Positions 10,384 to 21,457 of a DNA stretch of 64,000 bases are shown here, in pieces. The notes below the pieces were generated by a model. That model had not been told where the DNA came from, ran no database searches, and saw only the letters and a program-made list of their open reading frames with translations. This stretch comes from Acidobacteriota bacterium (GTDB lineage Bacteria > Acidobacteriota > Thermoanaerobaculia > UBA5066 > Gp7-AA6), in contig JBDTOO010000018.1 of the NCBI GenBank assembly GCA_039933215.1, forward strand, positions 305 to 64,304, read 5' to 3'. The translations under genes were made by a program, and so were the position numbers. Position 1 is the first letter of the stretch. Each line of letters starts with the position of its first letter.

Positions 10384-10554
10384 TCAGTGGGTGATCGTCG
10401 CTTCCTTCAGGTGAGTACCGGTCGCGCACGTCTGAATCAGCACGGGGCGGGCCTTGCCCCCCTTCACGCTGCGAGCCTGCCTGGCCGACAGCGTCTTGGG
10501 TTTGAGAGCTCCGGCACCCGCGCGTTTCTTCCCTTTGGCCGTTTTCTTGTTCAT
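10384..10554 (-). CDS. GG-leader precursor peptide P1 (56 aa)
   Basis: MNKKTAKGKKRAGAGALKPKTLSARQARSVKGG|KARPVLIQTCATGTHLKEATITH. AGGAGG lies 5 nt upstream of ATG 10554. The leader is shared with P2-P6. The track shows it only as the tail of the artefactual 277-aa ORF 10384..11217. Confidence 0.8.
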   Translation of the reverse strand: MNKKTAKGKKRAGAGALKPKTLSARQARSVKGGKARPVLIQTCATGTHLKEATITH

Positions 10555-10616
10555 GCCGCCTCCTGCGCTTGTGATTGTTCCGCCGCGATCAGCGCGACGG
10601 TCGGCCGCCCTTCCGT

Positions 10617-10793
10617 TCAAGGCTTGATGTCGTACTTGAAATGGATCCCGGCGTCCAGACTCCCGTCGGTTTTCCCGGGCTTGTATTGGAGCGACGTTTC
10701 CCCCCCTTTGACGTTCCGGGCCTGCTTCGCGCTCAGCGTCTTCGCGCCGAGACTCCGAACCGATTTTTTCGCCTTCGCAGGTTTCTTCTTCAT
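10617..10793 (-). CDS. GG-leader precursor peptide P2 (58 aa)
   Basis: Hand translation: MKKKPAKAKKSVRSLGAKTLSAKQARNVKGG|ETSLQYKPGKTDGSLDAGIHFKYDIKP. GAGGAG lies 6 nt upstream of ATG 10793. Not in the ORF track (below 60 aa). Confidence 0.8.
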   Translation of the reverse strand: MKKKPAKAKKSVRSLGAKTLSAKQARNVKGGETSLQYKPGKTDGSLDAGIHFKYDIKP

Positions 10794-10818
10794 GTCTGGC
10801 TCCTCTGTCGAATTGGAA

Positions 10819-10834
10819 AGCAGCCCGGATGCCA
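10819..10834 (-). promoter_or_regulatory. Sigma-54 (-24/-12) promoter upstream of P2
   Basis: The minus strand reads TGGCAT-CCGGG-CTGCT with GG-N10-GC spacing (consensus TGGCAC-N5-TTGCW). It sits about 25 nt upstream of the P2 ATG. Confidence 0.65.
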
Positions 10835-10979
10835 GTCACCCCACGCGTTGAAGAGGCCTTCCGGGGCGGCTTTGCCCGCGGAGGCCGCGGCGGGTGGCCG
10901 GGGATGGATCGAACGTGAGACACGGATGGTGTCGATATGGGGCCGTCTAAGAACCACACCCCCCCTGCCATTTCTTTCA

Positions 10980-11159
10980 TCAGGTGATCAGTATGTCGTT
11001 CATCTTGACGATGAGGTACTCGTGCTGCTCCTTCCCGGCCTTGCGGCCCCCTTTGACATCCCGGGCGTTTCTGGCGCTCAGCGTTTTCGCGGGCAGATCC
11101 TTGACCCTCTTGTTCGCCTTCCCCTTCGCCTTCGCCTTTCCCGTTTTCTGCTTGTTCAT
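10980..11159 (-). CDS. GG-leader precursor peptide P3 (59 aa)
   Basis: Hand translation: MNKQKTGKAKAKGKANKRVKDLPAKTLSARNARDVKGG|RKAGKEQHEYLIVKMNDILIT. AGGAGG lies 5 nt upstream of ATG 11159. Not in the ORF track. Confidence 0.8.
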   Translation of the reverse strand: MNKQKTGKAKAKGKANKRVKDLPAKTLSARNARDVKGGRKAGKEQHEYLIVKMNDILIT

Positions 11160-12732: not shown

Positions 12733-15700
12733 ATGAACGAGCGGGAGCTTCTCGACGAACTGCCGATCCTGCGGCTGCTGCCGGCAGAGGCGCGCTCTCT
12801 CGTCGTGGGCAGCTTCATCCCGGTGTCGTTTGCTTTCGGAGACACGATCGTCCGGGAGGGCGATCCGGCCGACGCCTTCTACGTGCTGGCCGCCGGCCGG
12901 GCGCGGATCGTCAAAAAGGGCGACGGCGGGGGAGAGATCCCGTTGAACAGCCTGCGTGCCGGCGACAGCTTCGGGGAGATGGGCCTGCTCGACCATTCGA
13001 CCCGGACCGCGTCGGTCCGCGCGTCGAGCGACGTTCGCGCCTGGCGCCTGGACAAGTCCGTCTTCCAGGCGCTGATCGCACAGAGCCCCGAGATCCGCCA
13101 GTACTTCGAGCTGCAGGTCCGCCACCGCCAGCTTTCGAATTTCTTCCGGGACTTCACGCCGTTCACGCGGCTTCCGCCGCCGGGCATGGCCCTGCTTCTC
13201 GGCAATCTCGAGAGCGTTCCGTTCGAGCCCGGCTCGGTCGTCGTGCGGCAGGGAGCCGAGCCCGGACCGATGTACTTCGTCGAATCCGGGCATCTTCGCG
13301 TCTTCACCGAGGACCCGGAGGGGCGACGGACGTACGTCGCCTACCTGCGCAAGGGGGACTTCTTCGGCGAGCTCTCCGTCTTCCGGGGATCCCGCCGTAC
13401 GGCGTCCGTGGAGGCGGTATCTGCCTGCCGGCTGCTCGCCCTGCACGCGGAGACTCTGCGCACGCTTCTCGATCGCTTCCCGGAGTTCCGATCTCAGATC
13501 GAGGAGCGCATCGCGCAGTACGACTACAAGGAGGCCGCGCGGGTCCCTCTCGACTTCGCCGAAGAGATCCTGCCCGCCGAGGCGTCGGCGCAGGAACAGG
13601 TCGGGTCGGACCAGGTCGAGCAAGGGGAAGAGGAAACGCGGGATCGCGCCGGGGAGCCCGGTGGGGCGTTCGAAGAGGAGGGACTCTTCGTCAAGAAGCC
13701 CGGACGCATCCGGCGCTTTCCGTTCGTCCGCCAGATCGACGAAGTGGACTGTGGGGCCGCCGCGCTCGCGATGGTATGCCGGCATTTCGGGCGAGCCGTG
13801 AGCCTCGCGCGCATCCGGCAACTCGTGCATACCTCGCTCGACGGCACGAGCCTGCGGGGAATCTGCGGCGCGGCCACGGAGCTCGGGCTCGCCGCGCGGT
13901 CCGTCAAGGCTTCCTCGCGGAATCTGGACGAGATGCCGCTTCCCGCGATCCTGCATTGGGAAGGGAACCACTGGGTGGTCCTTTACGACGTGACGGAGAC
14001 CCACTGCCGCGTCGCGGATTCCGCGATCGGGCTGCGGCGGTTCTCCCGCGCCGAATTCGAGAAGCGGTGGACGGGCTACGCCGCGCTGTTCGACTACACG
14101 AGCGAATTCGAGAACGCTCCCGTCGCCGTCTCGAACCTGGCCTGGCTGCGCCCCTTCTTCCGGCCCTTTACGAAGATCCTGCTCCAGGCCCTCGGCCTCT
14201 CGATCGTCGTCGCGGCTCTGCAGATGGTCCTGCCTGTCTTCACGCAGGTGATCGTCGACCGGGTGCTCGTGGAAAGGGACGTGTCGCTTCTGAACCTCCT
14301 CATGCTCGGCATGGGCGTCGTCATCGTCTTCCTGGTGCTGTCACTCGCCGTGCAGCGTTATCTGCTCAGCTTCGTGGCGGTGCGCGTCGACGCTTCAACG
14401 CTCGACTACCTGACGCGCAAGATGCTGGGCCTCCCCATGAGCTACTTCACGACCCGGCGCACCGGCGACATCCAGCGGCGTCTCGAAGGGATTCGCCAGG
14501 TCCGGGAGTTCCTCGTCCAGAGCGGCGTGGCCGGGGTCACCGCCGCGACGCAGCTCGCGGCGAGCCTCCTCCTGATGCTTCTCTACAGCCGGACTCTCAC
14601 CCTGGTGTTCCTCGCGACGGCTCCCGTCTACGGGTTGCTGATGTTCTATTCGTCGCGATGGCTCCGGCCGATCTTCGACGTCGTCGAGGATTCCTTCGGC
14701 AAGTACCACTCGTACCAGATCGATGCGATCAAGGGGATCGAGACCGTCAAGGCCATGGGCGCCGAGGGTTCATTCCGCAATCTGATGCTCGGGCAGTTCC
14801 TGAGCGTCGCCCGCCGCCTCTTCCGCGCGGACTTCACCGTGATGGGATACCGAGGCGCGGTCCAGACGGTCACTCTGCTGACGACGGCGCTCTTTCTCGG
14901 TATCGGAGCGCGTCAGGTGATGGGCGGGGCGCTCACGATCGGCGGTCTGGTGGCCTTCAACGCGCTGGTGGCTCTCGCGAACGCCCCGATCCTGACCCTG
15001 CTGACGATCTGGGACAACTGGCAACACTCCGCCGTTCTCCTGAACCGCTTGAACGACGTCTTCGAGCAGGAGCCCGAGCAAGGGGCCGACCGCTCCCGCC
15101 TCGTACCGGTGCGGAGCCTGGAGGGACGGATCGAGCTCCACGACCTCGGCTTCTCATACGGGCCGGAGGCCCCCGAGATCCTGAAGGGCATCACGTTCGA
15201 CGTCGAGCCGGGCAAGCGGGTGGCGATCGTCGGCCGCAGCGGCTCGGGTAAGACGACGCTCGTGAAGTGCCTGGCGGGTCTGCTCGAGCCGACGGAAGGC
15301 GCGATTCGCTACGACGGCGTGGATCTCAAGACTCTCAACTATCGCGACCTCAGGCGCCAGGTCGGATTCGTTCTGCAGGACAACTTTCTCTTTTCCGACA
15401 CGATCGCCCGCAACATCGCCTTTGGCGAGGACGAGCCGGACATGGACCGCGTGCTCTGGGCTTCCCGCGTGGCGAACGCGCACGAGTTCGTCGAGCGGCT
15501 TCCCCTCGGGTACGACACGAAAGTGGGTGAGAGCGGGATCGCCGTATCCGGCGGGCAGAAGCAGCGGATCGCGATCGCCCGGTCCGTCTACGCCAAACCG
15601 CCGGTGTTGATTTTCGACGAGGCGACGAGCTCGCTCGACACCGAATCGGAGCGCGCGGTGCAGGAGAATCTCGCCCAGTTGCTGAAGGGAAGGACGTCCT

Positions 15701-15858
15701 TCGTGATCGCGCACCGGTTGAGCACGATCGTCGACTCGGACTGGATCCTCGTCCTGGAGAAGGGGCGCCTCGTCGAGCAGGGCACCCACGAGCAGCTCCT
15801 CGACCGCCGCGGCCTCTACTATTACCTCTCGAGCCAGCAGATCGGCCTCTCCACATGA
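12733..15858 (+). CDS. Peptidase-C39 ABC exporter (PCAT) with two N-terminal cyclic-nucleotide-binding domains
   Basis: Two CAP_ED-like domains (..FGDTIVREGDPADAFYVLAAGRARIV..GDSFGEMGLL..RTASVRA.. and ..PGSVVVRQGAEPGPMYFVESGHLRV..GDFFGELSVF..RTASVEA..). C39 domain with catalytic Cys (QIDEVDCGAAALAMV) and His (WEGNHWVVLYDV). Six-TM ABC domain. Walker A GRSGSGKTT, signature VSGGQKQR, Walker B VLIFDEATS. Confidence 0.93.
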   Translation: MNERELLDELPILRLLPAEARSLVVGSFIPVSFAFGDTIVREGDPADAFYVLAAGRARIVKKGDGGGEIPLNSLRAGDSFGEMGLLDHSTRTASVRASSDVRAWRLDKSVFQALIAQSPEIRQYFELQVRHRQLSNFFRDFTPFTRLPPPGMALLLGNLESVPFEPGSVVVRQGAEPGPMYFVESGHLRVFTEDPEGRRTYVAYLRKGDFFGELSVFRGSRRTASVEAVSACRLLALHAETLRTLLDRFPEFRSQIEERIAQYDYKEAARVPLDFAEEILPAEASAQEQVGSDQVEQGEEETRDRAGEPGGAFEEEGLFVKKPGRIRRFPFVRQIDEVDCGAAALAMVCRHFGRAVSLARIRQLVHTSLDGTSLRGICGAATELGLAARSVKASSRNLDEMPLPAILHWEGNHWVVLYDVTETHCRVADSAIGLRRFSRAEFEKRWTGYAALFDYTSEFENAPVAVSNLAWLRPFFRPFTKILLQALGLSIVVAALQMVLPVFTQVIVDRVLVERDVSLLNLLMLGMGVVIVFLVLSLAVQRYLLSFVAVRVDASTLDYLTRKMLGLPMSYFTTRRTGDIQRRLEGIRQVREFLVQSGVAGVTAATQLAASLLLMLLYSRTLTLVFLATAPVYGLLMFYSSRWLRPIFDVVEDSFGKYHSYQIDAIKGIETVKAMGAEGSFRNLMLGQFLSVARRLFRADFTVMGYRGAVQTVTLLTTALFLGIGARQVMGGALTIGGLVAFNALVALANAPILTLLTIWDNWQHSAVLLNRLNDVFEQEPEQGADRSRLVPVRSLEGRIELHDLGFSYGPEAPEILKGITFDVEPGKRVAIVGRSGSGKTTLVKCLAGLLEPTEGAIRYDGVDLKTLNYRDLRRQVGFVLQDNFLFSDTIARNIAFGEDEPDMDRVLWASRVANAHEFVERLPLGYDTKVGESGIAVSGGQKQRIAIARSVYAKPPVLIFDEATSSLDTESERAVQENLAQLLKGRTSFVIAHRLSTIVDSDWILVLEKGRLVEQGTHEQLLDRRGLYYYLSSQQIGLST

Positions 15859-17084
15859 ACGATTCCTCACCCGCCGCGGCGCCCGGCGAGGCCCCTTACC
15901 TGGACGTCGAACCGCCGGCATGGGCCGCGCGGTCGCTCGCGACGGTCCTGATCTCGCTGTTCGCGGTCCTCGCGATCGCCGCTCTGGCGGTCCACGTGCC
16001 GGAGACCATATCGGCTCAGTTCGTGATCGTGCCCGTCCGGGGCACCGACCCGGTGCGCGCGTTCCGGGACGGTATCGTCACCGAGGCGCGCGTTCGCGAC
16101 ACGCAGACCGTCCGGGCGGGAGAGACGCTGTTCGTCATCACCTCACCGGCCATCGGCGATCGTGCGGCGGAGTCGGCGGGTCTGCAGGCGCAGCTCGCCG
16201 GCGCCGGAGAGCGATCCGGCAACGTGCGGACCCGGTACGAGAACGAGCAGCGGGCGCGAGACGAAGAAGAGTCGCGCCTCCGGATCCGCCTCGCGAGCCT
16301 CGAGAAGACGATCCAGATGAACACGCAGCAGCTCTCGATCGCGGCGGAGCTGGCGGAGCGGCAGAAAAAGGCGTTCGACGAGGGGATCTCGAGCTGGTCG
16401 GATCTCGCCCGCGTCCGGCTGGAAATCAATCGGCTGCAGATCGAGGCGCAGCAGGCGCAGGCGGAACGGGACGAGATCCGGCGTGCGGTCGCGAAGTCGG
16501 CCCACGAGAATCTCGCCCGCCAGTCGGAGTTCCGCGAATCCGAGCGCTCCGCGGCGGAGGATCTCGGAAAGGCCCGCGTTCGCACGACCATGCTCGAGAA
16601 AGAGCTCGCACAGACGGGCAATCAGCTCACGGCGGCCGCTCCCTGCGCCGGCAGCGTGGTGAAGACCAACATCCGCGGCGTCGGCGCGGTGGTCCGCGAG
16701 GGCGACGTCCTCGCGGAAGTCGCCTGCCGGGGGGAAAGGCTCGAGGCGGAGCTCACCATTCCGCAGGACGGGATGGCGCTCCTGCGGCCGGGCCAGGACG
16801 TCAAGCTCCTCTACGACGCGTTCCCTTATCAGCGCTACGGCGTGCGGCTCGCGAGGGTTCGCTGGGTGAGCCCGGCCGGGACGGGCGAGCCCGGAAAGGC
16901 GTCCTTCCGGGCGCTCGCCGACCTGAAGGAAACCGACGTGCCGGTCCGGGGTCAGAGGAGGCCGGTCGAGTCCGGGATGGGCGGCCGGGCGCGCATCATC
17001 GTGGGCCGGCGGTCTCTCGTGTCCTACGTCTTCGAGCCGTTGCGCCAGTTGAAAGAGAGCCTGGCTCCGGTGCCCTCGAAATGA
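15855..17084 (+). CDS. HlyD-family periplasmic adaptor (membrane fusion protein)
   Basis: The start overlaps the exporter stop (ATGA). One N-terminal TM helix, a long coiled-coil (..LRIRLASLEKTIQMNTQQLSIAAELAERQKKAFDEG..EINRLQIEAQQAQAERDEI..) and a C-terminal beta-barrel segment. Confidence 0.9.
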   Translation: MNDSSPAAAPGEAPYLDVEPPAWAARSLATVLISLFAVLAIAALAVHVPETISAQFVIVPVRGTDPVRAFRDGIVTEARVRDTQTVRAGETLFVITSPAIGDRAAESAGLQAQLAGAGERSGNVRTRYENEQRARDEEESRLRIRLASLEKTIQMNTQQLSIAAELAERQKKAFDEGISSWSDLARVRLEINRLQIEAQQAQAERDEIRRAVAKSAHENLARQSEFRESERSAAEDLGKARVRTTMLEKELAQTGNQLTAAAPCAGSVVKTNIRGVGAVVREGDVLAEVACRGERLEAELTIPQDGMALLRPGQDVKLLYDAFPYQRYGVRLARVRWVSPAGTGEPGKASFRALADLKETDVPVRGQRRPVESGMGGRARIIVGRRSLVSYVFEPLRQLKESLAPVPSK

Positions 17085-17103: not shown

Positions 17104-18093
17104 ATGACGCGCTCTCAGGACGCTTTGTCCCTGACCCTCGACGACTACCACGGCCGCGATCCCGCGATGCAGCGGTGCCTCGAGCAGGCGCGGCTCGCCG
17201 CGCGGACCGATCTTCCGATCCTGATCCTCGGAGAATCCGGGACCGGAAAGACCCTGCTCGCGCGCGCCGTCCACAACTCGTCTCCCCGGCGGGACGGGCC
17301 GTTCGTTTCCTTCAACGCCGCGGCCCTTTCGGACACCCTTCTCGATTCTCAGCTCTTCGGTCACGAGCGAGGCGCCTTCACCGGCGCGCAGAATCGCGTC
17401 AAGGGGAAGTTCGAGCTGGCGAACTCCGGTTCGCTCTTCATCGACGAGATCGCCGACATGAGCGCCTCGGGCCAGGGCAAGATCCTTCGCGCCGTCGAGT
17501 ACGGCGAGTTCGAGCGGCTGGGCTCGGAAACGATCCAGGTGTCCGACGTCCGCCTGCTGTCGGCGACGCACTTTCCGATGGGAGTGTTCACGGAGTCCGA
17601 GCGATTCCGGCGGGACCTGTTCTTCCGGATCAGCGGTTGGACGATCACGCTTCCGCCCCTGCGGGAGCGGCGAAAGGACCTCCCGCTGCTGCTCGCGTCC
17701 GAGATCGCGCGCGCGAGCCGGGAGCAGAAAAAGCCGATCGTGGGACTCGAGCGGGATGCCGTCGACCGCGTCCTCGCTCACGCCTGGCCGGGTAACCTGA
17801 GGGAGCTCTCCCGCGTGGTGGACGTGGCGGTCGCGTCGTGCGAGGCCGGAGTCGTGACCGCGGACGCGCTCTACCTCCAGTCCTTCCCCGACCCGGACGG
17901 TCGCCCCGCGTCTCCCGTCTCCCCGGCGTCAACCGGCGCGGAGACCCTCAGCCTCGCGGCGGCCGAACGCCGCCACATCGGAAGCGTGCTCGCCCGGCTG
18001 GCAGGAAACAAGCGGGCGGCCGCGAAAGCGCTCGGAATCTCCCGGTCGACGCTCGACCGCAAGTTAAACGACGCCGCGAAGGACGCCCGGTAA
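17104..18093 (+). CDS. Sigma-54-dependent transcriptional activator (AAA+ enhancer-binding protein plus Fis-type HTH) lacking an N-terminal sensory domain
   Basis: Walker A ILGESGTGKTLLA, the sigma-54 contact loop FGHERGAFTGA, Walker B LFIDEIADM, WPGNLRELSRVV, and C-terminal HTH NKRAAAKALGISRSTLDRKL. The AAA+ domain begins within about 25 residues of the N-terminus. Confidence 0.9.
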   Translation: MTRSQDALSLTLDDYHGRDPAMQRCLEQARLAARTDLPILILGESGTGKTLLARAVHNSSPRRDGPFVSFNAAALSDTLLDSQLFGHERGAFTGAQNRVKGKFELANSGSLFIDEIADMSASGQGKILRAVEYGEFERLGSETIQVSDVRLLSATHFPMGVFTESERFRRDLFFRISGWTITLPPLRERRKDLPLLLASEIARASREQKKPIVGLERDAVDRVLAHAWPGNLRELSRVVDVAVASCEAGVVTADALYLQSFPDPDGRPASPVSPASTGAETLSLAAAERRHIGSVLARLAGNKRAAAKALGISRSTLDRKLNDAAKDAR

Positions 18094-18100
18094 CCGCCGG

Positions 18101-18283
18101 TCAGTAACCGCGACGCTTCGAATCGAGCGACTCTCCCTTGATGTCCCCGAGCTTCGCGAAGACGTCGACGGCGCCGCCTTTCACCCGCTTCGCCTGATCG
18201 GCCTTCAGCCGCTTCGCAGGCAGGTTCGAAACGCTCTTCTTCGCGGCTTTGCCGCTCTTGCTGGATCCACGCCTGGTCGCCAT
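18101..18283 (-). CDS. GG-leader precursor peptide P4 (60 aa)
   Basis: MATRRGSSKSGKAAKKSVSNLPAKRLKADQAKRVKGG|AVDVFAKLGDIKGESLDSKRRGY. GAGGAGAGGAAA lies upstream of ATG 18283. The track ORF 18101..18310 starts 9 codons earlier at a less likely ATG. Confidence 0.8.
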   Translation of the reverse strand: MATRRGSSKSGKAAKKSVSNLPAKRLKADQAKRVKGGAVDVFAKLGDIKGESLDSKRRGY

Positions 18284-18339: not shown

Positions 18340-18510
18340 TCAGATGTCCATCGTGTCCGGATGCTTCGGGTCGAGCGATTCTCCCTTGATGTTCCCGATC
18401 CTGCCGCCTTTGATCCGTTTCGCCTGATCCCCCTTCAACGACTTCGGGGGAAGGCTCTTCGCCCGCTTGCCCGGCGAACCGGCCGCCTTCCTTCCTCGAT
18501 CGCTCGGCAT
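18340..18510 (-). CDS. GG-leader precursor peptide P5 (56 aa)
   Basis: MPSDRGRKAAGSPGKRAKSLPPKSLKGDQAKRIKGG|RIGNIKGESLDPKHPDTMDI. GGAG lies 6 nt upstream of ATG 18510. In the track it is only the tail of the artefactual ORF 18340..18804. Confidence 0.78.
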   Translation of the reverse strand: MPSDRGRKAAGSPGKRAKSLPPKSLKGDQAKRIKGGRIGNIKGESLDPKHPDTMDI

Positions 18511-18821: not shown

Positions 18822-19052
18822 ATGGCAGGAAGAAAATGGAAGCGAAGATGGCTCGAGCCGAGACTCGAAAGGCGTGAAACCGAAGTGAAGCGGATCCGCC
18901 GGCGGACCCGCGAGGTCGTCCTCCTGAAGGACCTGGCTCCCCGTCAGGAGATCAAGGGAGGAAGCGGAAAGCGGCTCTTCGGCGAGCGCATCGCTTCGAC
19001 GGAGTCGGAGGCGAAGGCCAGGAGGGTTTCTCGAAAGACGAAGCCCTCCTAG
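18822..19052 (+). CDS. Divergent GG-motif precursor peptide P7 (76 aa from ATG 18822, or 55 aa from GTG 18885)
   Basis: ...(V/M)KRIRRRTREVVLLKDLAPRQEIKGG|SGKRLFGERIASTESEAKARRVSRKTKPS. It has a basic N-terminus and a KDL(P)A..IKGG motif like P3-P5, but the leader is shorter. GGAGAA lies upstream of ATG 18822. It is the C-terminal part of track ORF 18594..19052. Confidence 0.5.
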   Translation: MAGRKWKRRWLEPRLERRETEVKRIRRRTREVVLLKDLAPRQEIKGGSGKRLFGERIASTESEAKARRVSRKTKPS

Positions 19053-19097
19053 TTCGACGAGCAGAGTGGATCGCAACGGAGCGAAAGGAGAGGGACG

Positions 19098-19265
19098 ATG
19101 GCAACCAGGAAGAGTCGGAAGCCCGCGAAGAAGGTCAAGTCGATGAAGGCGAAGAGCCTGAATGCGAAGCAGGCCAGGAGCGTCAAGGGCGGCAAAACGA
19201 CGCTTCAGGACATCAGCTTCGTTCACAGTGTCGATAAGGCGAGCCCGGTCCTCCTTCAGAAATAA
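19098..19265 (+). CDS. GG-leader precursor peptide P6 (55 aa)
   Basis: Hand translation: MATRKSRKPAKKVKSMKAKSLNAKQARSVKGG|KTTLQDISFVHSVDKASPVLLQK. AAGGAG lies 7 nt upstream of ATG 19098. Not in the ORF track. Confidence 0.8.
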   Translation: MATRKSRKPAKKVKSMKAKSLNAKQARSVKGGKTTLQDISFVHSVDKASPVLLQK

Positions 19266-19285
19266 GACGGGCCGATCTCGAAGGG

Positions 19286-20458
19286 TCAGCGTTCGCCGGG
19301 CCTGGAGTCCGCCAGGATGTGGAAGTCCGCCAGTTTTCGGACCAGGTCCTCTTCCACGCGGATTCCCAGCTCGCTTTCGATCGTCTCGAGAGCCTCCCGC
19401 GTGGGCTGCCCCTGGAAATAGGGCAGCACCTGCAGGATCTCCGGCGGGAGATCGAGGGCATCGGCGCCGGTGTAACCGACGATGCGAACGGCCTCCGGAC
19501 TCGCCGAGAGGATCTGGAACGTGCCGGGAGTGAGCCGTTCCGGGAGCTTTTCCGAGAGCAACTCCGCGTGCGCCTGCCGCGTCATGCGCGCCTGCACCGC
19601 GATGTCGGCGCCGCCGATGCGCGCCACGTCCTCCCACGCGAGCGGTCCGACGCGGCGGCCGCACTCCCGATAGAACTCCCGCTCCCGTCCGAGCCACTGT
19701 CCCCAGACCTTCCGCGCGGACGCGGGATCGGGCCGGCCGTCGACGTCCGCGGCGCTCATCGGCAGCTTCGTCCCGGGACGCGGCTTCGGCGGGAAGACGG
19801 ACTCCAGGGCGGCGGCGTCGAGGCCGGACTCGAGAACGCACCAGGTCGAAAGCGCCCACTCGACTTCCTTCAGGAGGTCTCGCAGGCGGTCCCAGAAAGC
19901 CATGCCGACGGCTCCCCGCTCGTACTTGCAGAACCAGGTGGCGCAGATGGCGTTGCGATGCTTCCAGATGCCGCACCGGCCTCCCGCCTCCTCGAGGTAG
20001 TGCGGACACCGCAGCGTCTCGGCGCGCCCGAAGGCCGCGGGCCCTCCGGCGTCGTAGAGCACGCTGAAGCGGGCCGGCGCCTGGACCCCGAGCGGATGGA
20101 CGCCGACTCCCTCGTCCAGGCGTCGCTCGAGCGTCGCCCGGCCCGCGGAGAAGGCGAAGTCGCCGTCCTCGAGGGCGCGGCCCACGAGAAAATTGGGCAC
20201 GGTCGGCACGTAGGTGCAGCACTTGGTCCGCGGGCTGAAGTAATTGCCTTCGTCGGGAGGTGCGCCCGGGGGCGCGCACATCGCGCAGTCGTCGCAGGTC
20301 GCGCGGGTCTCGGCGGGGATCGGACCACGCAGCAGGGCGTCGATCCAGCGGGCGTAGAGGGGAGGCAGGGAGCTGCTCGGATCGAAGGGCTGCACCGTCC
20401 CCCGAGGATAGAGCCGGCGGAGCGGGGCCGCCAGCGGTAAACCTCCGGACGGATACAT
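19286..20458 (-). CDS. Cysteine-cluster protein (YkgJ/CxxCxxCC-like) with a possible C-terminal PqqD/RRE-like peptide-binding region
   Basis: Cys motifs CDDCAMC...KCCTYVP...CPHYLEEAGGRCGIWKHRNAICATWFC. The C-terminal segment LPPEILQVLPYFQGQPTREALETIESELGIRVEEDLVRKLADFHILA resembles PqqD-type RiPP recognition elements. It is convergent with P6. Confidence 0.8.
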   Translation of the reverse strand: MYPSGGLPLAAPLRRLYPRGTVQPFDPSSSLPPLYARWIDALLRGPIPAETRATCDDCAMCAPPGAPPDEGNYFSPRTKCCTYVPTVPNFLVGRALEDGDFAFSAGRATLERRLDEGVGVHPLGVQAPARFSVLYDAGGPAAFGRAETLRCPHYLEEAGGRCGIWKHRNAICATWFCKYERGAVGMAFWDRLRDLLKEVEWALSTWCVLESGLDAAALESVFPPKPRPGTKLPMSAADVDGRPDPASARKVWGQWLGREREFYRECGRRVGPLAWEDVARIGGADIAVQARMTRQAHAELLSEKLPERLTPGTFQILSASPEAVRIVGYTGADALDLPPEILQVLPYFQGQPTREALETIESELGIRVEEDLVRKLADFHILADSRPGER

Positions 20459-20471
20459 CGTATAACAAGGT

Positions 20472-20840
20472 ATGATGCAGCGGATGGCAACGGACGGTTC
20501 CGAGAACTGGGAAAGCCAGGTCCGTAAAGGCTGGCTCGAGCTCGCGATCCTCGCGAGCCTCTGGTCCGAGAAACTCTACGGACTCGACATCCTTCGGAGG
20601 CTCGAAGCGGGCTCGGACCTCGTGGTGGCCGAAGGCACGATCTATCCGATCCTGAATCGACTGAAGCGGGACGGCCTGATCGACTCGAAGTGGGTCGAGT
20701 CGGAGGGCGGCCACCCGCGCAAATACTACTGGCTGACGGCCGCCGGACGGCGGCGGACGCTTTCCATGGCCCGGCACGCCTCGCTGTTCCTGGGACGCAT
20801 CCAGGAGCTTCTCGCCCCGCTGCTCTCGGAGGAGGAATGA
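20472..20840 (+). CDS. PadR-family transcriptional regulator
   Basis: WLELAILASLWSEKLYGLDILRRLE...EGTIYPILNRLKRDGLIDSKWVESEGGHPRKYYWLTAAG. Confidence 0.88.
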   Translation: MMQRMATDGSENWESQVRKGWLELAILASLWSEKLYGLDILRRLEAGSDLVVAEGTIYPILNRLKRDGLIDSKWVESEGGHPRKYYWLTAAGRRRTLSMARHASLFLGRIQELLAPLLSEEE

Positions 20841-21457
20841 TGCTTACGCCGAATACGCCCCACAGCGACCGCCTCCAGACGCGCATCGACGCGTACCTCA
20901 TGCGGCTGCGGAGGAGCCTCGGCGAGCTCCCGCCGGAGGAGGTCGCGGACATTCTTCAGGAGATCCGCGGCCACATTCTCGAGCGCGCCGAGGCCGCCGG
21001 CGAGATGACGGACGAGCGTCTCGTCGCGATCCTCCAGGCCCTCGGGCGGCCCGAGGACATCGCGCCCCTCTACCAGGCCGAGGCCCTCATGGCCCGCGCG
21101 CGGACGAGCTACTCGCCGACGCTGCTTCTGCGGGGCGCGCTGCGGTGGGCGATGCTCTCCGTCCGGGGTTTCGCGATCTTTCTCGCGGGTCTCGTCGGCT
21201 ACGGGATCGCTCTCGGGTTTCTGGTGGGCGGCTTCGGCAAGATCGTCGCGCCGCGGCAGATCGGGGCTTGGTGGACGCCGGGGAGCTTCAGCATCGGAAC
21301 GACGACCAACCCCGCCGCGCACGATGTCCTCGGCTGGTGGCTCGTCCCCGTCGGCCTCGCCGTCGGAGCGATCGGGCTGGTCGCGACGACGTGGTTGCTC
21401 CGGTGGGCGCTCGGCTTCGCGAAGCTGCGGCGGGCGATCCCGGCGCGCGTGACGTAA
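20837..21457 (+). CDS. Membrane protein (DUF1700-like partner of PadR)
   Basis: ATG overlaps the PadR stop (ATGA). N-terminal helical region ...YLMRLRRSLGELPPEEVADILQEIRGHILE..., then 3 TM helices. Confidence 0.8.
   Translation: MMLTPNTPHSDRLQTRIDAYLMRLRRSLGELPPEEVADILQEIRGHILERAEAAGEMTDERLVAILQALGRPEDIAPLYQAEALMARARTSYSPTLLLRGALRWAMLSVRGFAIFLAGLVGYGIALGFLVGGFGKIVAPRQIGAWWTPGSFSIGTTTNPAAHDVLGWWLVPVGLAVGAIGLVATTWLLRWALGFAKLRRAIPARVT

What the first reader, a model, noticed from the sequence alone, without database searches (positions are those of the whole stretch)
19286..20458. Cys-cluster protein next to the precursors ends in a PqqD/RRE-like segment
The protein has 12 or more cysteines, arranged CxxCxxC...CC...C-x10-C-x9-C-x4-C. 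This is like the YkgJ (CxxCxxCC) Fe-S/Zn proteins.

The last roughly 60 residues (DALDLPPEILQVLPYFQGQPTREALETIESELGIRVEEDLVRKLADFHILA) have the spacing of a winged-helix RiPP recognition element. In PqqD-like domains the pattern is L...IL..L.G..T..EI...L......V..DV..FL..L...GLL.

The gene is convergent with P6 and 20 nt away. If it is truly an RRE-containing metalloprotein, the peptides may be post-translationally modified by a chemistry that is not yet assigned.
Basis: inference. Interest (0 to 1): 0.6.

Follow-up and report, generated by a model that had tools for sequence, protein, structure and literature searches.

The report
Cysteine-cluster protein with peptide-docking tail
This gene encodes an unstudied cytoplasmic protein that joins a cysteine-rich, probably metal-binding domain to a fold that other enzymes use to grip precursor peptides, and its family sits right beside small export-tagged peptide genes in many soil bacteria, so it is a good candidate for a new kind of peptide-modifying enzyme.

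Summary
The minus-strand gene carries 11 cysteines, not 12 or more, in the stated pattern. It ends 20 nt from the convergent peptide gene P6. It most likely starts at GTG 20395, giving 369 aa.

An AlphaFold model (pLDDT 84) shows two parts:
- **N-terminal Cys-cluster domain.** It has no solved relative and only sub-threshold similarity to Pfam CxxCxxCC/YkgJ.
- **C-terminal domain (residues 283-366).** Its best structural matches are almost all RiPP recognition elements (MccB, MibB, PbtF, NisB, TbiB1, PqqD; Z 4.9-7.8). The Pfam PqqD model does not detect it.

The gene is linked to the peptides:
- 37 of 81 loci from at least six phyla have a double-glycine-leader peptide gene within 500 nt.
- Among 41 relatives, it and the cNMP-C39 exporter occur together in 6, apart in 1, and are absent from 34.
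- The link is not obligate. A sample of 401 genomes of the phylum contains exporter-only and protein-only genomes.

My best reading, at about 0.5, is a leader-docking metalloenzyme that tailors the peptides before export, by unknown chemistry.

The scan has already noted this protein family on other genomes. I found no paper describing it in the library searched.

The parts
19286..20395 (-). Gene for the Cys-cluster/RRE protein ('CysP'), 369 aa from GTG 20395. The open frame runs on to ATG 20458.
   Evidence: ORF. Database gene call P0001 is 369 aa. The homologues' N-termini agree. A Shine-Dalgarno-like GGGGGA lies before the GTG. No TM segment; pI 5.4.
19745..20323 (-). N-terminal Cys-cluster domain (residues about 25-217 of 369). 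It holds invariant C34, C37, C59, C60, C130, C141, C151, C156 and C186.
   Evidence: Alignments A1/A4. Model pLDDT 88.7. Sub-threshold PF03692 hits in 19 of 36 members. hhalign P=0.002. Atlas structure match TM 0.82 to a 194-aa cluster in which 15% of members carry PF03692. No PDB relative.
19550..19744 (-). Helical linker region (residues about 218-282). Its last long helix, 254-281, pairs with helix 161-189 of the N-domain.
   Evidence: DSSP on the models. Only generic helical-hairpin matches.
19298..19549 (-). C-terminal RRE-like winged-helix domain (residues 283-366): four short strands, three helices and a final strand.
   Evidence: pLDDT 86-96. VIA-align Z 7.8-4.9 to the RRE domains of MccB, TigE, MibB, PbtF, TbtB, MadB, NisB, TbiB1, McbB, lasso B1 and PqqD. 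Foldseek local hits to McbB, TbiB1, TruD and LynD. Atlas PqqD and McbB clusters.
19098..19265 (+). P6: lysine-rich double-glycine-leader peptide gene, convergent with CysP and 20 nt away. The core resembles an Hcp segment.
   Evidence: Weak TIGR03344 (E 0.04) and PF05638 (E 0.002) matches. Gap measured.
18822..19052 (+). P7: arginine-rich peptide gene with a ...KDLAPRQEIKGG leader end.
   Evidence: A like peptide lies next to CysP in L002.
18340..18510 (-). P5: double-glycine-leader peptide with an ...IKGES... core.
18101..18283 (-). P4: double-glycine-leader peptide whose core is like the Hcp first strand (..DVFAKLGDIKGES..). This is the core type most often found directly upstream of CysP in other phyla.
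12733..15858 (+). Exporter (PCAT): two cNMP-binding domains, a C39 peptidase and an ABC transporter.
   Evidence: Pfam. Nearest NCBIfam is TIGR03796, below its cut-off. Co-occurs with CysP.
15855..17084 (+). HlyD-type adaptor.
   Evidence: Pfam. Near CysP in 20-23 loci.
17104..18093 (+). Sigma-54 activator (AAA+ and Fis HTH, no receiver domain).
   Evidence: Pfam. Near CysP in 11-12 loci.
10384..11159 (-). P1-P3: three further double-glycine-leader peptide genes of the same locus.
   Evidence: Earlier notes of this scan.

Best explanation
CysP is a soluble cytoplasmic two-domain protein.

**Shown**
- The C-terminal 85 residues have the fold of a RiPP recognition element.
- The N-terminal 220 residues form a conserved nine-cysteine domain distantly like the YkgJ/CxxCxxCC family.
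- The gene is kept next to double-glycine-leader peptide genes and is inherited together with their C39-peptidase exporter.

**Inferred**
- The C-terminal domain docks the unprocessed peptide precursors, most likely by strand pairing with the leader.
- It presents them to the metal-cluster domain (Fe-S or Zn), which modifies them covalently.
- The exporter then cuts the leader after Gly-Gly and secretes the product.
- The chemistry is unknown. The only biochemical precedent in proteins with a similar Cys motif is FliB, a [4Fe-4S] and SAM-dependent enzyme that methylates lysines of flagellin before secretion. Lysine methylation is therefore one concrete possibility.
- CysP is an optional accessory, because some exporter loci lack it.
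For: **Fold**
- Of 48,161 PDB representatives, the six best matches to the whole model are RRE-bearing RiPP enzymes (Z 7.8-6.3, 77-83 residues, model 282-369).
- At least 13 of the top 23 matches are RRE domains.
- DNA-binding winged helices score 3.9 or less and cover only 53-68 residues.
- Foldseek and the ESM Atlas point the same way.

**Register.** hhalign against a PqqD alignment aligns ..L..VL.YFDGRPT..AL with ..N.tg..IW..l.G.....I at P=0.012.

**N-domain.** Nine invariant Cys and many invariant Trp/Arg/Lys. PF03692 matches in 19 of 36 members, best E 0.002. hhalign P=0.002 on CPHY..C.VW.HR..C versus CPFL..C.IY..RP..C.

**Adjacency.** 37 of 81 loci have a GG-leader peptide gene within 500 nt. 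Density is 0.67 per kb there against about 0.1 per kb beyond 1 kb. 25 are upstream on the same strand and 14 are convergent, as in this window.

**Exporter**
- A C39 PCAT lies within 10 kb in 21 loci, plus 4 at the locus edge, out of 80. Among loci with full flanks the figure is 17 of 42.
- Among 41 relatives: both genes in 6, exporter only in 1, neither in 34 (Fisher 1.6e-6).
- In the phylum sample of 401: both in 4, where 0.25 is expected (Fisher 3.6e-5).

**Other points**
- Canonical RiPP enzymes sit in some of these loci: B12-radical SAM in L001 and L004, LanB in L010 and L026.
- FliB precedent: PMC8598068.
- CysP is acidic, with no TM segment.
Against: - No member of the C-terminal domain set hits Pfam PqqD, even at E up to 10. 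A profile of that domain also finds nothing in PDB sequences.
- The structural Z values are below 8, a range the tool warns can reflect a common arrangement.
- The PF03692 match is below the curated cut-off. The canonical CxxCxxCC is split, with the CC pair 18 residues later.
- No FliB or other NCBIfam model matches.
- Leaders next to CysP are of very different types, lysine-rich or acidic. Leader charge does not track RRE charge (rho -0.09).
- The link is not obligate:
  - 7 of 11 exporter genomes in the phylum sample lack CysP, and 5 of 9 CysP genomes lack this exporter.
  - About half of the loci show no adjacent peptide.
  - The five CysP-only genomes of that sample show none within 10 kb by my pattern.
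- The window copy has no sigma-54 promoter like those reported for the peptide genes.
- Nothing shows catalysis.
Confidence: 0.5

Rival explanations
1. CysP is a non-catalytic peptide chaperone or adaptor. The RRE-like domain holds the strand-prone peptide precursors in the cytoplasm, or hands them to the exporter, as free PqqD does for PqqE. The cysteine clusters are structural zinc or Fe-S sites.
For: - The fold and adjacency evidence is the same as for the main reading.
- No recognisable catalytic fold was found in the N-domain.
- CysP is dispensable in many exporter loci.
- Cores next to it are diverse, often Hcp-strand fragments that could aggregate.
Against: - Beyond the cysteines, the 220-residue N-domain keeps many invariant polar and aromatic residues (E29, K58, N68, R92, R147, K157, R160, several Trp). 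That is more than a structural metal site needs.
- RRE-less relatives of the N-domain exist (260-aa cluster). This suggests the N-domain has a function of its own.
Confidence: 0.25
2. CysP is a redox- or metal-sensing transcription regulator. The C-terminal winged helix binds DNA and the Cys cluster senses the signal.
For: - The C-terminal domain is a winged helix-turn-helix. Fur, Nur, PerR, MecI and AsnC appear in the structural list (Z 3.6-3.9).
- CysP is divergent from a PadR regulator gene in the window.
Against: - RRE domains outrank DNA-binding winged helices by 2-4 Z units and cover the whole domain, including the strands.
- The domain is acidic: pI 4.6 here, and mean net charge -2 across loci.
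- The PadR neighbour is not conserved, appearing in only 2 loci.
- The gene's conserved partner is a peptide gene, not an operator-bearing operon.
Confidence: 0.07
3. CysP has a cellular function unrelated to the peptides and merely travels on the same mobile or accessory island.
For: - About half of the loci have no adjacent peptide gene.
- 5 of 9 CysP genomes in the phylum sample lack the cNMP-PCAT.
- No conserved promoter is shared with the peptides in the window.
Against: - Adjacency within 500 nt, mostly co-oriented, recurs in at least six phyla with unrelated leaders and different flanking genes.
- No other neighbour is conserved.
- The fold of the C-terminal domain is the one used for peptide docking.
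Confidence: 0.08

Closest known systems
RRE-containing RiPP maturases (e.g. MccB, NisB/MibB LanB dehydratases, McbB, lasso-peptide B1 proteins, PqqD with PqqE)
   Same: - An 85-residue strand-plus-three-helix winged-helix domain with the same topology.
- Encoded beside leader-bearing precursor peptide genes.
- Part of a locus with a leader-cleaving exporter.
   Different: - The attached domain is not a YcaO, LanB, radical-SAM, ThiF-like or ATP-grasp enzyme. It is a YkgJ-like Cys-cluster domain with no solved relative.
- The RRE lies at the C-terminus.
- Pfam PqqD does not detect it.
- Leader binding is untested.
Pfam PF03692 CxxCxxCC / UPF0153 (YkgJ, COG0727 'Fe-S-cluster containing protein')
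   Same: - N-terminal CxxCxxC.
- A later C-P-x-[LY]...C-x-[IV]-[YW]-x-x-R-x-x-x-C motif that hhalign aligns (P=0.002).
- Recurrent sub-threshold HMM hits.
- JGI names one homologue with the COG0727 label.
   Different: - The score is 11.8 bits against a cut-off of 23.
- The CC pair is displaced by 18 residues.
- CysP is about three times longer than YkgJ, with a helical region and an RRE added.
FliB, flagellin lysine N-methyltransferase of Salmonella (PMC8598068)
   Same: - About 370-400 aa and cytoplasmic.
- An N-terminal Cys motif ending in CC, plus further conserved cysteines.
- Acts on a secreted protein before export.
- The peptides here are lysine-rich.
   Different: - FliB has CX4CX3CC. 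CysP has CX2CX2C and a separate CC.
- No NCBIfam FliB model or any other NCBIfam model matches CysP.
- I could not obtain a FliB sequence through the tools, so homology was not tested directly.
- FliB's substrate is a folded protein, not a leader peptide.
NHLP/Nif11-type and class II bacteriocin loci with PCAT export
   Same: - Double-glycine leaders.
- A C39-ABC exporter, nearest NCBIfam TIGR03796, with a HlyD adaptor.
   Different: - The exporter carries two cNMP-binding domains.
- Leaders are lysine-rich.
- Cores are Hcp fragments.
- The only candidate tailoring protein in the window is CysP.

Membership tests
RiPP recognition element (structural/functional class, Burkhart et al. 2015 definition as I recall it) | Winged helix-turn-helix of about 85-90 residues: a three-stranded sheet followed by three helices. 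| tested here: met
   The model has strands at 287-290, 294-298, 303-306 and 314-316 and helices at 320-326, 332-343 and 349-357, with pLDDT 86-96. The best PDB matches are RRE domains at Z 7.8-4.9, rmsd 2.8-3.8 over 76-83 residues.
RiPP recognition element (structural/functional class) | Encoded next to genes for leader-bearing precursor peptides. | tested here: met
   P6 lies 20 nt away in the window. 37 of 81 loci have a GG-leader peptide gene within 500 nt, six to eight times the density further out.
RiPP recognition element (structural/functional class) | Binds the leader region of the precursor. | not testable with these tools
   No complex prediction or binding assay was available. The leader-charge versus RRE-charge test gave no signal.
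Pfam PqqD family PF05402 | HMM match at or above the curated score. | tested here: not met
   None of 33 C-terminal domains matches PF05402 at E up to 10. No PF05402 match in the whole genome. Profile-profile comparison with a PqqD alignment gives only P=0.012 over 38 columns.
Pfam PF03692 CxxCxxCC (YkgJ/UPF0153) | HMM match at or above 23 bits. | tested here: not met
   11.7-11.8 bits, E 0.4, for the window protein. 19 of 36 family members match below the cut-off, best E 0.002.
Pfam PF03692 CxxCxxCC (YkgJ/UPF0153) | Cys motifs: N-terminal CxxCxxCC and a C-terminal CP.L...C.IY..RP..C. | tested here: inconclusive
   CysP has CxxCxxC with CC 18 residues later. The second motif is aligned by hhalign at P=0.002, probability 14%. 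The Atlas structure match is TM 0.82 to a cluster in which only 15% of members carry PF03692.
FliB-type [4Fe-4S] lysine N-methyltransferase | CX4CX3CC motif and a match to a FliB family model. | tested here: not met
   The spacing differs (against PMC8598068). No NCBIfam family matches at E up to 1 for the window protein or for 36 members.
FliB-type [4Fe-4S] lysine N-methyltransferase | Oxygen-sensitive [4Fe-4S] cluster and SAM-dependent methyl transfer. | not testable with these tools
   Needs purified protein.
RiPP biosynthetic gene cluster | Precursor peptides with a leader, a leader peptidase/exporter and at least one tailoring enzyme that changes the peptide. | tested here: inconclusive
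   Precursors and a C39-ABC exporter are present. CysP is the only candidate tailoring protein in the window. No modification is shown.

The most novel reading that the evidence does not exclude
CysP founds a new class of RiPP maturase. A FliB-like Fe-S (possibly SAM-using) domain is guided by a built-in RRE and chemically modifies exported Hcp-fragment peptides, for example by lysine methylation. These peptides would then be a new RiPP family, found in Acidobacteriota, Methylomirabilota, Myxococcota, Gemmatimonadota, Chloroflexota and Planctomycetota.
Probability: 0.3. Interest if true: 0.8.

Novelty: new variant of a known kind. Interest (0 to 1): 0.62.

Why it matters
- **A new catalytic partner for a known docking domain.** RRE domains are the common handle by which very different enzymes recognise ribosomal peptide precursors. 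Each new catalytic domain found attached to one has so far meant new peptide chemistry. Here the attached domain belongs to the almost unstudied YkgJ/CxxCxxCC world. Its only characterised look-alike, FliB, uses an Fe-S cluster for an unusual methyl transfer.
- **Size and spread.** The family has 540 clusters at 50% identity with E of 1e-10 or better. It is unnamed and is spread over soil phyla that are rarely mined.
- **Link to the peptides.** It is the only candidate tailoring function for the peculiar exported Hcp-fragment peptides of this locus.
- **Testability.** Co-expression with a precursor followed by mass spectrometry would answer the question directly.

Tried and rejected
- **PDB sequence search.** Profiles of the whole protein and of the C-terminal domain gave nothing meaningful.
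- **Foldseek against PDB.** No global match for the whole model or the N-domain; the listed rows have rmsd 15-28.
- **VIA-align on the N-domain alone.** The best hit was Z 4.8, and all hits were generic helices. This does not show that the fold is new.
- **Pfam PqqD on 33 C-terminal domains.** No hit.
- **NCBIfam.** No hit for the protein or for 36 members.
- **Short stand-alone relatives of residues 280-369.** None found in the word-indexed database.
- **RRE-domain profile against 1.84 billion representatives.** It returned only proteins with the domain at their C-terminal end, and no other architecture among the best 150.
- **Leader charge against RRE charge.** No correlation.
- **Promoters and terminators.** No sigma-54 site upstream of CysP, and no sigma-70 or terminator consensus in 18900-20900.
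- **Literature.** No paper in the library mentions CxxCxxCC, and none links YkgJ or COG0727 to RREs or to peptidase-ABC exporters.
- **Closed or exhausted tools.**
  - I could not obtain a FliB sequence through any tool, so the direct CysP-FliB comparison was left out.
Full report
**What is in the sequence**

The minus-strand ORF 19286..20458 exists and gives 390 aa from ATG.
- It has 11 cysteines, at residues 55, 58, 61, 80, 81, 151, 162, 172, 177, 207 and 266. That is CxxCxxC, then CC, then C-x10-C-x9-C-x4-C, plus two more.
- The quoted C-terminal segment is at residues 333-383.
- The stop codon lies 20 nt from the stop of the convergent peptide gene P6, 19098..19265.
- The likelier start is GTG 20395, giving 369 aa. 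It has a GGGGGA run 5-11 nt upstream. It matches the homologues' N-termini and the database gene call. ATG 20458 has no ribosome-binding site and would sit 13 nt from the divergent PadR gene.

All residue numbers below use the 369-aa form.

**The family**

- The word-indexed search found 586 relatives among the 8,000 candidates scored. None has a precomputed Pfam domain. The only names are 'hypothetical protein' and, once, the COG0727 label 'Fe-S-cluster containining protein'.
- In 31 sequences down to 46% identity, C34, C37, C59, C60, C130, C141, C151, C156 and C186 are invariant, and C40 and C245 nearly so. Many Trp, Arg and Lys positions are also invariant.
- A profile of the C-terminal domain finds 829 cluster representatives at E of 0.001 or better, and 540 at 1e-10 or better, among 1.84 billion. 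Among the 150 hits listed, the domain always lies at the protein's C-terminal end.
- The protein is acidic (pI 5.4) and has no hydrophobic segment, so it is cytoplasmic.

**Structure**

The AlphaFold2 model of the whole protein has mean pLDDT 84 and pTM 0.84. The model of residues 1-283 alone has pLDDT 88.7.

*C-terminal part.* It is made of strands 287-290, 294-298, 303-306 and 314-316, helices 320-326, 332-343 and 349-357, and a last strand 361-363.
- I aligned the whole model to 48,161 PDB representatives without a Foldseek prefilter. The six best matches all cover model residues about 282-369, and all are RRE-bearing RiPP enzymes:
  - MccB (Z 7.8, rmsd 3.2, 79 aligned)
  - TigE (7.4)
  - MibB (7.3)
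  - the isolated RRE of PbtF bound to its peptide (6.7)
  - TbtB (6.6)
  - MadB (6.3)
- NisB, TbiB1, McbB, a lasso B1 protein, PqqD (Z 4.9), CteB and LynD follow.
- DNA-binding winged helices (Fur, Nur, PerR, MecI, AsnC) reach only Z 3.6-3.9 over 53-68 residues.
- Foldseek's only low-rmsd rows are McbB, TbiB1, TruD and LynD.
- The ESM Atlas lists PqqD and McbB clusters for residues 282-369.
- The tool warns that Z below 8 can be a common arrangement. The argument therefore rests on the consistent identity of the top hits, not on the score alone.

*N-terminal domain.* Searched alone, it has no solved relative. The best hit is Z 4.8, and all hits are generic helices.

**Sequence-level tests**

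*C-terminal domain against PqqD*
- None of 33 C-terminal domains hits Pfam PqqD at E up to 10.
- I built a PqqD alignment from nine PF05402 matches in related genomes, leaving out the two genomes flagged as unpublished. hhalign against it gives P=0.012 over 38 columns.
- The domain is therefore not a member of PF05402, although it has the RRE fold.

*N-domain against PF03692*
- PF03692 is the only recurrent Pfam family. It appears in 19 of 36 members, best E 0.002, and all are below the 23-bit cut-off.
- hhalign against six PF03692 proteins from related genomes gives P=0.002 over 78 columns. It aligns CPHY..C.VW.HR..C on CPFL..C.IY..RP..C.
- The Atlas gives TM 0.82 to a 194-aa cluster in which 15% of members carry PF03692. 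It also shows a 260-aa cluster that matches the N-domain alone.

I read the N-domain as a divergent YkgJ-like domain to which an RRE has been fused.

**Linkage to the exporter**

I fetched 80 loci, one per species, from Acidobacteriota, Methylomirabilota, Myxococcota, Gemmatimonadota, Chloroflexota, Planctomycetota and others.
- A C39-peptidase ABC exporter lies within 10 kb in 21 loci. In 4 more it lies just beyond the edge. Among the 42 loci with at least 8 kb on both sides, the figure is 17.
- In several distant loci (L010, L012, L068) CysP is directly next to a cNMP-C39-ABC gene on the same strand.
- HlyD, the sigma-54 activator and the parvulin-like gene follow the exporter. No other neighbour is conserved.

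**Linkage to the peptides**

This is the stronger signal.
- A double-glycine-leader peptide gene lies with its midpoint within 500 nt of CysP in 37 of 81 loci.
- Density is 0.67 per kb there, against about 0.1 per kb beyond 1 kb.
- 25 are upstream on the same strand, 14 are downstream and convergent as in this window, and 11 are downstream on the same strand.
- This includes loci with no exporter in reach, such as L027, L030, L039 and L077.
- Leaders differ widely, either lysine-rich or acidic of the ELS.EDLEQV.GG type.
- The adjacent core is often the Hcp first-strand type..D.F.K..GIKGES... It occurs in 13 loci besides the window, and directly upstream of CysP in eight of them.

**Co-occurrence**

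- Among 41 relatives, CysP is in 6 genomes and the cNMP-PCAT in 7. Both are in 6 and neither in 34. In the window's own genus only 2 of 15 genomes have either gene, and those 2 have both (Fisher 1.6e-6; related genomes are not independent). The two unpublished genomes, G024 and G030, count only among the 34 'neither'.
- In an even sample of 401 genomes of the phylum, CysP is in 9 and the exporter in 11. Both are in 4, where 0.25 is expected (Fisher 3.6e-5).
- The same sample shows the link is facultative. Seven exporter genomes lack CysP yet carry GG peptides. Five CysP genomes lack this exporter and show no GG peptide within 10 kb by my pattern.
- Of 26 genomes where CysP has no exporter nearby, 4 carry the full-length orthologue elsewhere. 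Two more carry a 40%-identical form of about 1,030 aa.

**Context**

- Some related loci hold canonical RiPP enzymes next to CysP: B12-binding radical SAM in L001 and L004, and full-length LanB in L010 and L026. These peptide loci are therefore at least sometimes true RiPP clusters.
- The window's genome, 92% complete, has no full-length Hcp. PF05638 finds only peptide P6, below the cut-off.
- The window copy of CysP has no sigma-54 site of the kind reported for the peptide genes.

**Mechanism**

*Shown:* an RRE fold, a conserved multi-Cys domain, adjacency to precursor genes, and co-inheritance with the leader-cleaving exporter.

*Inferred:* the RRE docks the uncut precursor, the Cys-cluster domain (Fe-S or Zn) modifies it, and the exporter then removes the leader.

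The one biochemical precedent for a similar Cys motif is FliB. It has a CX4CX3CC-bound [4Fe-4S] cluster, is SAM-dependent, and methylates flagellin lysines before secretion (PMC8598068). CysP fails the FliB membership tests I could run. FliB is therefore an analogy, not an assignment.

Rivals:
- a non-catalytic chaperone or adaptor (0.25)
- a metal-sensing regulator (0.07), disfavoured by the acidic domain and the hit order
- an unrelated passenger gene (0.08)

**Novelty**

I found no paper in the library that describes this fusion or links YkgJ/COG0727 proteins to RREs or PCAT loci.

After forming my reading, I looked at the scan's earlier notes. Other agents have flagged the same protein family next to exported peptides on other genomes and reached similar readings. 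Those notes are unchecked AI notes, not independent evidence.

I class this as a new variant of a known kind: an RRE-guided peptide-tailoring protein with a catalytic domain not yet seen in that role.

Noticed in passing
window 20472-21457 (+): A PadR-family regulator (20472-20840) and a HAAS-domain protein lie divergent from CysP, with only about 76 nt between the starts. The pair is not conserved with CysP: PadR appears in 2 of 80 loci.
   Followed up: partly
whole genome G000; window 19140-19262: The 92%-complete genome has no full-length Hcp. The Hcp family model finds only peptide P6, below the cut-off. The Hcp-fragment peptides are therefore made by an organism in which no Hcp gene was found.
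   Followed up: partly
L001:11404-13440(-), L004:11393-13549(-); L010:12905-16153(+), L026:13716-17186(+): The closest relatives have a B12-binding radical SAM gene beside CysP and its convergent peptide. Two Acidobacteria loci have a full-length LanB lantibiotic dehydratase just downstream of CysP.
   Followed up: partly
L053, L054, L055, L062, L075 (peptides within 500 nt of CysP): Peptides carry two successive Gly-Gly motifs a few residues apart (...KPAKGG-TVRGG...). This suggests two possible cleavage sites or a conserved five-residue spacer.
   Followed up: no
G021:C2:975286-975690(-); G106:C6:475081-476067; G122:C3:239062-240066; G149:C46:2587-3504: - A 170-aa open frame in a near-complete relative matches only CysP residues 235-369, which looks like a stand-alone RRE-plus-helix form.
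- Several genomes of another acidobacterial family carry 2-4 paralogues, including shorter forms of about 330 aa that lack residues about 198-228.
   Followed up: no
L114:1-357(+) (G075): Directly upstream of a CysP homologue lies a lysine-rich repeat ORF (..KKIESKKIESKK..) that ends ...KKGEVKKGGF, so only one residue follows the Gly-Gly.
   Followed up: no
window 18822-19052 (+); L002 and L111 (G424): The arginine-rich peptide P7 (leader end ..KDLAPRQEIKGG, core SGKRLFGER..) has clear counterparts in L002 next to CysP and in a PCAT-only locus of G424. It is therefore a conserved member of these arrays and is not Hcp-like.
   Followed up: no
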